Part shown: in pieces, positions 1 to 3,000 of the stretch | How positions within the stretch are numbered: position 1 is the stretch's first letter | Layout of the letters: each line of letters starts with the position of its first letter | NCBI RefSeq assembly: GCF_017348835.2 | Contig: NZ_CP071375.1 | Source: Escherichia coli | GTDB lineage: Bacteria; Pseudomonadota; Gammaproteobacteria; Enterobacterales; Enterobacteriaceae | Length of the DNA: 64,000 bases | Strand: one strand, 5' to 3' | Made by a program: the position numbers

Positions 1-3000
1 GTTTTAGGGGTTCACCAATAACTGCATTATTCCATTCGCCAAATTTTCCTGGAACTTCATCATAAATGCCGAGGGAAAGAACAAAGATCAGACGTTTAAC
101 ATCACAGGCTTTCATCGCAGCGATCACTGAATTTGCCTGAATATCTAAATCTTCCCCCGTAAGGTTGGCATACACAATATCCTGTCCCTGCATGGCCTGC
201 TTCAGTGCTGCATGATTCAGTACATCCCCCATAATAATCTGGCTATTAGTTGGATAGGGTTTGTGTATTTTTGCTGGCTGACGAGCAAATAAAGTTTGTT
301 TAATGGTTTGTTTATCTGCCAGTTGATTAATCACATGGCGGGCTATCTGACCGCCAGCACCAAGAATGAGTACTTTTTTCATAATATTTCTCATGAAACT
401 TATCCCAGATGGGTGTTGAAAAAAGGAATAACTTTTTCCAGCGCCTCCTGAACTGCTTCCGGTTTGTCATACAGTTCATAATGTGAGAAATCGGGTAACG
501 AAACTAACTGACGATCCTGCGAAACCATCGCCCGGCCATAGACTTCCAGTCCATCACGATAAGCACCGAAGGCACCGACTTTTTCACCAACTACTACCAT
601 CACCGGCTGAGTCAGTAACACTTCAGTAAATGCGAAGGCATCCCAGGCCAGCGTTTTCTGTGCATGTGAGAACAACATTTTTGTCGCACCTCCCGGTTGT
701 TGCCCGCGTGGTGTTTTATAGTAGTCAGTTGCTTCATAAACATCGCGTTCGGTCAGTCCATGGGCTTTTGCTGCATCCAGGCTGGCGGGAAGTAATTCGT
801 TGATCTGTAATTCTCCACCACGAGCCTCTTTGGTTCGTTGCGACGCCATTGCATTCAATGCGCCAATCGGATCGTAATTGCTGAAACCTTCCCGAAAAAG
901 ACGCCCGATATTAACACCCGTAATACTCACTACAGCTTTAATTCGTTTTTCTGTCAGCGCGGCATTAATGGCATAGCCCCCCCCCACACACACCCAGCAC
1001 GCCAATGCGTTCAGCATCAACATATGGCAGAGTTACTGCATAATCGATAACACGGCTAATATCCTCTACGCGCTGTGTCGGATCTTCTATCCAACGAGGC
1101 TCCCCACCAGATTCTCCCTGGAAACTGGCGTCATAAGCGAGAACGACATAGCCTTTTTCAGCCAATGCCTTGCCATAGATATTGCCAGACGTCTGCTCCT
1201 TACAACTGCCAAAAGGATGGACGCTGATAATCGCCGGATACTGTTTTGACTCATCAAAATTTGGTGGAAACTGAATATTGGCAGCAATATGCCAGGCCAT
1301 ATCACTATTGCGGATTTGAATATGTTTCATTACAGAGTTTCCTCAAAGAACGGAGCTAATACTGAAATTGCTTCAGCCACATAGGCTTTGCCGTCATAAA
1401 GATCCATATGGTTTGCGCCTTCAACAATGTGATAGCGTTTATCCTGGCTTGATGCCCGATCGTACAGATCGTCACTCATCCATTTGCTCCCTGCCTGGCT
1501 GCCCGCCACAATCTGCATCGGCTGAGTCAGGTACACTTCCGCCATATGGTAAGCATCATAGGTAATAATCTGGTTAAGGCTGCGCAAAGTAGCGTAACCC
1601 GGTGCTGTTGGATACTGCGCGCGAGGGGTGTGGTAATACTCCCAGGCCTGACGCAGTTCTTCGTTCGGCGCATCGGACTCCTTCATTGGTGCCAGTGGCA
1701 TAATGGCGTATTCTCCGCTGCTAATATCGCTGGTTCTGGCGTTTGAACCCGCTTCAACGTATGGCAGGGCATCAATAGATTTCACATTGTTTTCCCAACC
1801 ATTACGGAACATCGAACCAATATTGACCGCACTAACGGTACCGATGGCCTTGATGCGGCGATCCTGAATTGCAGCATTGGCTGTATATCCTGCACCGGCA
1901 CAAATTCCCATCGCACCAATTCGGGTATTGTCGACATAAGAAAGCGTTGTCAGGTAATCAATCACGGCACTGACGTCTTCAGTACGAATGTATGGGTTTT
2001 CTAACTGACGCGGCTCGCCGCCGCTTTCACCTTGATAAGATGCGTCATAAGCAATAGTGACAAATCCCTTTTCCGCCAGTTTTTCGGCATAGGTTCCGGC
2101 CGTTTGCTCTTTAACGCCCCCACCAGGGTGAGATACCACAATTGCCGGATACTGACGGGTTTCATCAAATTTTGGAGGGAAATAGATCACTGCAGACAAA
2201 GAGATGGTTGGATTATTGCTGTTAGTGAAGCTGACTTTATTATTCATCATTCCGTTCCTCATGGAGTTGTCGGTTCGTTTTAACGGTTGGTGATATCACT
2301 ATAGATATTGATCATTAAGTTGATTAGACCCAAAATCATGATTAGACCTATCATTTAAATGATTAATAGATTGTATGGAGATACTGAATGAAGCGTGAAG
2401 AAATCGCTGATCTGATGGCGTTTGTCGTCGTTGCAGAGGAGCGTAGCTTCACTCGCGCTGCAGCCCGCCTGAGCATGGCGCAGTCAGCTTTAAGCCAGAT
2501 AGTGCGCCGTATAGAAGAACGATTGGGATTGCGGCTTCTGACGCGAACTACGCGCAGCGTTGTACCAACTGAAGCGGGCGAGCATCTTTTGTCTGTTCTT
2601 GGCCCTATGTTGCATGACATAGATTCTGCCCTGACATCCCTGAGCGATCTGCAGAACCGCCCATCCGGGACAATACGTATTACTACTGTAGAACATGCAG
2701 CAAAAACGATATTGTTACCAGCAATGCGCACATTCCTGAAATCGCATCCTGAAATTGATATCCAGCTTACCATTGATTATGGTTTGACCGATGTCGTTTC
2801 TGAACGTTTTGATGCAGGCGTCCGTCTGGGTGGGGAGATGGATAAAGATATGATCGCCATTCGAATCGGGCCAGATATACCAATGGCTATTGTTGGCTCA
2901 CCGGATTATTTTTCTCGCCGAAGTGTTCCAACGTCAGTGTCACAATTAATAGATCATCAGGCAATTAATTTGTACCTTCCCACATCGGGTACAGCAAATC

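What the first reader, a model, noticed from the sequence alone, without database searches (positions are those of the whole stretch)
400..1330. C9 homopolymer followed by (AC)4 coincides exactly with a frameshift that splits a ycjY-paralogous hydrolase
Seen in sequence: ccccccccc at 977..985 followed by acacacac. On the coding (minus) strand the upstream frame reads ...RIGVLGVCGGG and the downstream frame resumes GGGYAINAALTEKRIK..., so 8 or 11 C residues instead of 9 would give one continuous ~310-aa protein. This is either a genuine slipped-strand (phase-variable or decaying) site or a homopolymer base-calling error.
Basis: seen in the sequence. Interest (0 to 1): 0.35.

Follow-up and report, generated by a model that had tools for sequence, protein, structure and literature searches.

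The report
Slippage-prone G-run inactivating E. coli hydrolase gene
The nine-C run is a real, inherited frameshift at a mutation hot spot that arose when silent changes fused an interrupted G-run in a dispensable E. coli hydrolase gene; it is an ordinary pseudogene, but the run varies from 7 to 16 bases across E. coli, including O157:H7.

Summary
Confirmed: C9 at 977..985 followed by (AC)4 at 986..993 sits exactly where a 310-codon alpha/beta-hydrolase gene (minus strand, 400..1330; 42% identical to the adjacent YcjY; full-length form of the K-12 remnant ymjD; pseudogene ECs_1907 in O157 Sakai) breaks into a 121-aa and a 207-aa ORF. It is not a base-calling error: the same allele occurs in five independent assemblies and on 25 contigs of a public protein collection, on three slightly different gene backbones. 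The ancestral coding sequence GGA GTG TGT GGG GGT GGT GGC (also in an outgroup Escherichia) is exact in 868 of 871 complete genomes. Synonymous changes (GGA>GGT, GGT>GGG, in some lineages a second GGT>GGG) produced a (GT)n-G8+ compound repeat. About 400 complete genomes carry it, with G7 to G12 before TGG, a pure-run series (G9, G10, G16) and an extra GT unit. Only about 21% are in frame. The window has pure G9; its near-identical relative F2_81 has pure G10. Best reading: replication slippage in a dispensable gene, giving a reversible-looking but probably neutral on/off polymorphism. Adaptive phase variation is not excluded, but nothing supports it. Modest interest; a new example of a known kind.

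The parts
977..985 (-). G9 run on the coding strand (C9 on +); the frameshift site. It encodes the Gly residues just after the catalytic Cys of the nucleophile elbow G-V-C-G-G.
986..993 (-). (GT)n dinucleotide repeat (acacacac on +) directly upstream of the G-run in the coding direction; encodes Val-Cys. One unit longer in an O157:H7 subclade.
965..1330 (-). 5' ORF of the broken gene (121 aa). Carries the Peptidase_S15/DLH N-terminal half and ends 3 codons after the run (stop TAA at 965..967).
400..976 (-). 3' part of the broken gene in the other frame (inside mechanical ORF 400..1023). Homologous to residues 120-310 of the intact protein, including the conserved His region (DFSHYELYD).
1330..2262 (-). 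ycjY, the upstream paralogue. PGAP annotates 306 aa (921 nt); the mechanical ORF gives 310 aa. Its stop overlaps the start of the broken gene (TAATG, 1328..1332).
1..382 (-). 5' part of the downstream SDR/NmrA-type oxidoreductase gene (ymjC in Sakai). Start ATG at 382..380, 17 nt after the hydrolase stop.
2388..3287 (+). pgrR (LysR-type regulator), divergent from the ycjY operon.

Best explanation
The run is a replication-slippage hot spot in an accessory cytoplasmic alpha/beta-hydrolase gene, the second gene of the PgrR-controlled ycjY-ymjD-ymjC(-mpaA) operon. Ancestrally, the codons after the catalytic Cys read GGG GGT GGT GGC, an interrupted run that does not slip. In one haplotype, synonymous substitutions (GGA>GGT before the Cys, GGT>GGG after it, and in some lineages the second GGT>GGG too) fused the pieces into (GT)3-4 plus a G-run of 8 or more. 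Indel rates rise exponentially with run length, so the run now gains and loses bases, and occasionally a GT unit, giving a ladder of alleles of which two thirds by length are out of frame. The window carries the fully pure run at G9, 2 nt short of the in-frame G11; its closest relative has G10. Translation stops 3 codons after the run. The 121-aa product keeps the Cys but lacks the C-terminal half with the conserved His, so the enzyme is inactive. Shown: the anatomy, the polarity of the substitutions, the allele ladder, the independence of assemblies, and the stability of the interrupted form. Inferred: slippage as the mechanism, loss of activity, and neutrality (the gene is absent from about three quarters of E. 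coli).
For: The frame break is exactly at the run, and pure G11 restores a protein identical to KV7's intact one. PGAP annotates the gene as 'frameshifted' in PE164, F2_81 and several O157 genomes, and Sakai lists it as pseudogene ECs_1907. The interrupted allele is in the outgroup Escherichia sp. E4742 and is exact in 868 of 871 complete genomes. Complete-genome counts for pure-run alleles: G8TGG 77, G9TGG 212, G10TGG 73, G11TGG 6, (GT)+1 G8TGG 7, window type 1, pure G10 3; about 21% are in frame. In the large collection every predicted truncated product exists: G7 135 contigs, G9 and G10 at least 1000 each, G12 363, window type 25. DNA checks confirm G12TGG and pure G16. The window allele was verified in 5 independent assemblies, one with a short-read assembler's contig naming, on 3 gene backbones. 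F2_81 is nearly identical to the window over 25 kb and has an identical gene apart from G10 versus G9. Several genome pairs that look closely related, from their strain names or near-identical genome sizes, differ only by run length at this site. Only 1271 of 5426 genomes have the gene, and K-12 has an 865-nt internal deletion. Indel rate is an exponential function of run length (PMC8510543).
Against: No reads were available, so within-culture heterogeneity and the true rate are unknown. Some G8/G9/G10 differences between long-read assemblies could be consensus errors. The predicted in-frame pure G11 intermediate was not found in complete genomes, so the path to G9 could instead be loss of TG from G8TGG or of TGG from G9TGG. 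Counts are not phylogenetically independent. Neutrality is inferred from dispensability, not measured.
Confidence: 0.8

Rival explanations
1. Homopolymer base-calling or assembly error: the genome really has an in-frame run and the gene is intact.
For: Among 5426 complete genomes the exact allele is in one record only, PE164. Long G/C runs are the classic residual error of long-read consensus (own knowledge). Genomes of nearly identical size differ by one G.
Against: The identical allele occurs in two NCBI draft assemblies, one ENA metagenome assembly with k119_ contig naming, and two Logan assemblies of public runs. Its product is on 25 contigs, on three backbones. An error would have to delete 2 nt identically each time. 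The rest of the 4.3-kb region shows no indel against these assemblies.
Confidence: 0.04
2. Adaptive phase variation (contingency locus): the compound repeat is kept because stochastic on/off switching of the hydrolase, possibly with polar effects on downstream ymjC and mpaA of the peptidoglycan-recycling operon, benefits lineages such as O157:H7.
For: Both in-frame lengths (G8, G11) and out-of-frame lengths coexist within O157:H7/O55:H7, and sibling isolates differ (TT12A G8 vs TT12B G9; O145 RM9873-C1 G8 vs RM9872 G9). No other inactivating lesion was seen in the alleles examined. The gene is translationally coupled in a PgrR-regulated operon.
Against: In-frame lengths are not enriched: about 21% against one third expected, and contig counts are unimodal around G9-G10. 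The repeat is recent and absent from the ancestral haplotype. The product is a cytoplasmic enzyme, not a surface structure. The gene is dispensable in most E. coli. Runs drift up to G16. No phenotype is known, and no paper was found on this site.
Confidence: 0.1
3. Recoding: transcriptional slippage by RNA polymerase or ribosomal frameshifting on the G-run restores some full-length enzyme from out-of-frame alleles, so the gene is not truly dead.
For: Runs of 9 or more identical bases are known sites of RNA polymerase slippage, and a G-run lets tRNA-Gly re-pair in any frame (own knowledge). The downstream reading frame is still intact.
Against: The out-of-frame arrangement is not conserved: the ancestral gene, exact at this site in 868 complete genomes, is a plain single ORF. 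The required shift differs between alleles (+1 or -1). No stimulatory element was sought or seen. Slippage on G/C runs is less efficient than on A/T runs (own knowledge).
Confidence: 0.06

Closest known systems
YcjY (E. coli; PDB 5XB6) and PA2218 (PDB 2HDW), DLH/Peptidase_S15-like alpha/beta hydrolases
   Same: Same fold family by sequence (E 1.2e-68 and 4.9e-41; 42% identity to the adjacent YcjY). Same G-x-C-x-G elbow and C-terminal His motif region. Same operon.
   Different: A distinct paralogue with no solved structure or assigned substrate. Broken here by the frameshift.
K-12 ymjD pseudogene remnant / O157 Sakai ECs_1907 / EDL933 Z2444
   Same: Same locus. Sakai and EDL933 carry the G9TGG (+1) allele and are annotated as a pseudogene or a 122-aa ORF. 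K-12 keeps only about 55 nt of the 5' end and about 11 nt of the 3' end.
   Different: The window allele is a different lesion: pure G9, TGG lost, -2. K-12 was inactivated by deletion, not slippage.
Homopolymeric-tract phase-variable genes of Neisseria, Campylobacter, Bordetella and Mycobacterium tuberculosis (e.g. glpK)
   Same: An intragenic G/C run with on and off length alleles among close relatives, and stepwise length changes.
   Different: Here the run is evolutionarily recent, lies in a dispensable cytoplasmic enzyme, shows no excess of in-frame alleles and has no known phenotype. Switching within a clone has not been measured.
General survey of homopolymeric tracts in Escherichia (PMC8928963)
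   Same: Reports that longer tracts are associated with pseudogenes and that pathogenic lineages such as O157 accumulate tracts.
   Different: It does not mention this gene, the synonymous-substitution origin or the allele ladder.

Membership tests
Slipped-strand (simple-sequence-repeat) hypermutable site | Uninterrupted mono- or dinucleotide repeat of a length known to slip (about 8 or more for G/C) | tested here: met
   G9 plus (GT)3.5 in the window; G7-G16 elsewhere
Slipped-strand (simple-sequence-repeat) hypermutable site | Length polymorphism among close relatives confined to the repeat, in repeat units | tested here: met
   F2_81 versus the window: the gene is identical except G10 versus G9. 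Allele counts. GT unit gain in 7 O157:H7 genomes.
Slipped-strand (simple-sequence-repeat) hypermutable site | The interrupted version of the same sequence is stable | tested here: met
   868 of 871 genomes are exact over 67 nt
Phase-variable contingency locus | High-frequency reversible on/off switching within a clonal population | not testable with these tools
   Only assemblies are available. Near-clonal pairs differ, but the direction, the rate and the sequencing-error share are unknown.
Phase-variable contingency locus | Repeat maintained by selection, or in-frame states favoured | tested here: not met
   The repeat is derived and absent from the ancestral and outgroup sequences. About 21% are in frame, with no enrichment.
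Sequencing artefact | Allele private to one assembly or platform | tested here: not met
   Five independent assemblies from NCBI, ENA and Logan; 25 contigs
Programmed frameshift / transcriptional-slippage gene | Out-of-frame arrangement conserved across lineages | tested here: not met
   The ancestral form is a single ORF. Out-of-frame alleles differ in the required shift.
Alpha/beta hydrolase, DLH/Peptidase_S15-like (YcjY family) | Pfam match above the curated cut-off | tested here: met
   N-terminal fragment: Peptidase_S15 34.9 bits (cut-off 23), DLH 26.8 bits (cut-off 21)
Alpha/beta hydrolase, DLH/Peptidase_S15-like (YcjY family) | Nucleophile elbow G-x-(S/C)-x-G plus downstream acid and His | tested here: inconclusive
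   G-V-C-G-G aligns with G-I-C-A-G of YcjY, and SHYELYD aligns with NHMDLYD. The catalytic roles are inferred from the family, not tested.

The most novel reading that the evidence does not exclude
The (GT)n-Gn tract is a genuine contingency switch in E. coli. It was created by silent mutations and toggles the second gene of the PgrR-regulated peptidoglycan-recycling operon, with polar effects on ymjC and mpaA, in O157:H7, O145:H28 and pig-associated lineages. This would be a rare case of repeat-mediated phase variation of a cytoplasmic metabolic function in a species thought to rely on other switching mechanisms.
Probability: 0.08. Interest if true: 0.6.

Novelty: new member of a known kind. 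Interest (0 to 1): 0.3.

Why it matters
The frameshift itself is an ordinary annotated pseudogene. The comparative picture has some value beyond that. It shows, in a large natural sample, one or two synonymous substitutions turning a stable coding sequence into a site with at least eleven length alleles, a reminder that 'silent' changes can alter mutability. It marks a locus in O157:H7 and other STEC where gene-by-gene typing and pseudogene calls will be unstable, and where assemblies of genomes that appear to be near-clonal disagree. It also offers a natural ladder (G7-G16) for measuring G-run slippage in mismatch-repair-proficient E. coli.

Tried and rejected
1. I searched for the predicted in-frame pure G11 intermediate in complete genomes and found none. 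The route to pure G9 therefore stays open: T>G then -1, -1; loss of TG from G8TGG; or loss of TGG from G9TGG.
2. Literature searches for ycjY/ymjD, for Z2444 and ECs1904-ECs1906, and for homopolymeric tracts in O157 found no description of this site. ECs1907 itself was not searched. A machine-learning paper on O157 lists a YcjY feature without detail.
3. I considered chance: a C8+ run alone is not significant in 64 kb.
4. I considered that the window is simply PE164. It differs from PE164 and all fetched relatives at 2459.
5. I did not attempt structure prediction, fold search or RNA-structure analysis around the run. They would not discriminate between the explanations.
6. Two frameshifted genomes with the ancestral tract (VREC0864, UTAK-14) have their lesion elsewhere in the gene, so they are not tract events.

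Full report
OBSERVATION. The window reads ccccccccc at 977..985 followed by acacacac at 986..993. On the minus strand, a 121-aa ORF (965..1330) ends ...ERIGVLGVCGGGLCH*. A 207-aa ORF in another frame (400..1023) continues ...GGGYAINAALTEKRIKAV.... The N-terminal piece matches Peptidase_S15 and DLH above Pfam's cut-offs. The reconstructed protein is 42% identical to the adjacent YcjY ORF. Its best solved relatives are YcjY (5XB6) and PA2218 (2HDW). In silico, G8 gives 309 aa. G11 gives 310 aa, identical to an intact protein annotated in strain KV7. A C/G run of 8 or more is not in itself beyond chance in 64 kb. It is the only G/C run longer than 7 in the window, and it coincides exactly with the frame break.

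LOCUS. The window is E. coli, with gene order mpaA, SDR oxidoreductase (ymjC), this hydrolase, ycjY, then divergent pgrR and mppA. The ycjY stop overlaps the hydrolase start (TAATG), and the SDR start lies 17 nt after the hydrolase stop. Published work places ycjY-ymjDC(-mpaA) in the PgrR regulon (PMC5934670, PMC3946193). Only 1271 of 5426 complete E. coli genomes carry the gene at full length. K-12 keeps about 55 nt of the 5' end fused to about 11 nt of the 3' end, an 865-nt internal deletion corresponding to window 411..1275. That is the ymjD remnant. K-12 has also lost the 3' part of the SDR gene. In O157:H7 Sakai the gene is annotated as pseudogene ECs_1907, 'dienelactone hydrolase'. The EDL933 product Z2444 is the 122-aa fragment.

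ANCESTRAL AND DERIVED STATES. Intact genes in O26:H11 11368 and strain 103605, and in the outgroup Escherichia sp. E4742, read GGA GTG TGT GGG GGT GGT GGC TAT (G-V-C-G-G-G-G-Y). A 67-nt query for this allele is exact in 868 of 871 matching complete genomes, and the one non-exact match listed has the same length. The two frameshifted genes I met on this background have their lesion elsewhere. A second haplotype differs by synonymous GGA>GGT, which extends the GT repeat, and GGT>GGG, which fuses G5 and G2 into G8. Strains KV7 and O18ac 873.10 have this (GT)3-G8-TGG form in frame, annotated as intact and encoding the same local protein sequence.

THE ALLELE LADDER. Complete-genome counts on the derived haplotype are as follows.
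- G8TGG, in frame: 77.
- G9TGG, +1: 212, including Sakai and EC4115. EDL933, TW14359 and Xuzhou21 match at the G9TGG length, and EDL933's Z2444 is the G9TGG product.
- G10TGG, +2: 73.
- G11TGG, +3, in frame with one extra Gly: 6, including O55:H7 CB9615.
- One extra GT unit with G8TGG, +2: 7, all O157:H7.
- Extra GT with G10TGG: seen in F3113.
- G7TGG: seen in TB06052 and OZ197100.
A further family has also lost the last T. It comprises pure G9 (the window and PE164), pure G10 (F2_81, ECNB21-M121, OkiPb01695) and pure G16 (two draft assemblies). About 83 of 399 carriers (21%) are in frame.

An exact-sequence look-up in a collection of about 15 billion proteins found every predicted truncated or full-length product.
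- G7: 135.
- G8: 937, plus at least 1000 for the KV7-type product.
- G9: at least 1000.
- G10: at least 1000.
- G11: 797.
- G12: 363, confirmed at DNA level.
- (GT)+1 forms: 149 and 63.
- Window type: 25.

IS THE WINDOW'S ALLELE REAL? Among complete genomes it is exact only in PE164. The same DNA (TGTGTGT-G9-CTAT) is nevertheless present in five independent assemblies: two NCBI drafts, one ENA metagenome assembly whose contig name follows a short-read assembler's convention, and two Logan assemblies of public runs. These lie on three gene backbones distinguished by positions 499 and 405. The allele therefore either arose more than once or moved by recombination. Over 4.3 kb these assemblies show no indel relative to the window. 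The window's nearest relatives over 25 kb are PE164 and the pig isolate F2_81. F2_81's gene is base-for-base identical except for G10 instead of G9. A base-calling error is therefore very unlikely.

MECHANISM. Indel rates in E. coli rise exponentially with homopolymer length (PMC8510543). The contrast between 868 of 871 unchanged interrupted tracts and at least eleven length alleles in about 400 pure-run carriers fits that rule. I infer that silent substitutions created the hot spot and that replication slippage did the rest. For the window lineage, the simplest path is G8TGG, then T>G giving pure G11 (in frame, same protein), then G10, then G9. No pure G11 was found in complete genomes, so direct loss of TG or TGG remains possible. 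The 121-aa product retains the elbow Cys but lacks the C-terminal half with the conserved His region. Loss of activity is inferred from this. A premature stop 565 nt before the SDR start could reduce expression of ymjC and mpaA. That is speculation.

RIVALS. Adaptive phase variation is not excluded. On and off lengths coexist within O157:H7, and no second lesion was seen in the alleles examined. Against it, in-frame lengths are not enriched, the repeat is recent, runs drift to G16, the enzyme is cytoplasmic and dispensable, and no phenotype or publication was found. Recoding by transcriptional or ribosomal slippage could give traces of full-length protein, but the out-of-frame state is not conserved. 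Part of the G8/G9/G10 scatter among long-read assemblies may be consensus error. The GT-unit alleles, the reference genomes produced by different projects, and the draft and read-run assemblies argue that most of the variation is real.

COMPARISON AND NOVELTY. The site behaves like the homopolymeric tracts of classical phase-variable genes. It meets the tests for a slipped-strand hypermutable site and fails the one testable criterion for a selected contingency locus. A survey of Escherichia tracts (PMC8928963) reports the general link between long tracts and pseudogenes but not this gene. The pseudogene is already annotated. The origin by synonymous substitution and the G7-G16 ladder appear undescribed in the literature I could search. 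Verdict: a real and mostly ordinary feature, a new member of a known kind, of modest interest (0.3).

Noticed in passing
window 26883..26901: Two C7 runs separated by TAAAT and followed by G5 (ccccccc taaat ccccccc ggggg) inside a 319-aa ORF (26268..27227, +). This is another possible slippage-prone spot.
   Followed up: no
L020 582..1501 versus L021 581..1501: In a Logan assembly of an Escherichia sp. E4742 run, ycjY is split into 155-aa and 160-aa ORFs. The NCBI assembly encoding the same hydrolase protein has an intact 306-aa ycjY. This could be an assembly error or a real variant.
   Followed up: no
window 2459: The window differs from PE164 and from all five independent assemblies at this one position inside pgrR. 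It therefore comes from a very close relative of PE164, or from another version of that assembly, rather than from the PE164 record searched.
   Followed up: partly
window 405 (equivalent position in L002, L003, L008, L017): O157:H7/O55:H7-type genes have a G>T change that makes the stop codon one codon earlier (...THL* instead of ...THLG*).
   Followed up: partly
L019 (K-12 W3110) 1349..1503: K-12 has two separate deletions here. One is an 865-nt internal deletion of this hydrolase (window 411..1275), leaving the ymjD fusion remnant. The other has removed the 3' part of the SDR gene ymjC.
   Followed up: yes
L007 1..32: In O18ac:H14 strain 873.10 an IS1 element lies about 70 nt beyond the hydrolase stop, where the SDR gene normally starts.
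   Followed up: no
window 1328..1332: The ycjY stop and the hydrolase start overlap (TAATG), which suggests translational coupling within the operon.
   Followed up: no
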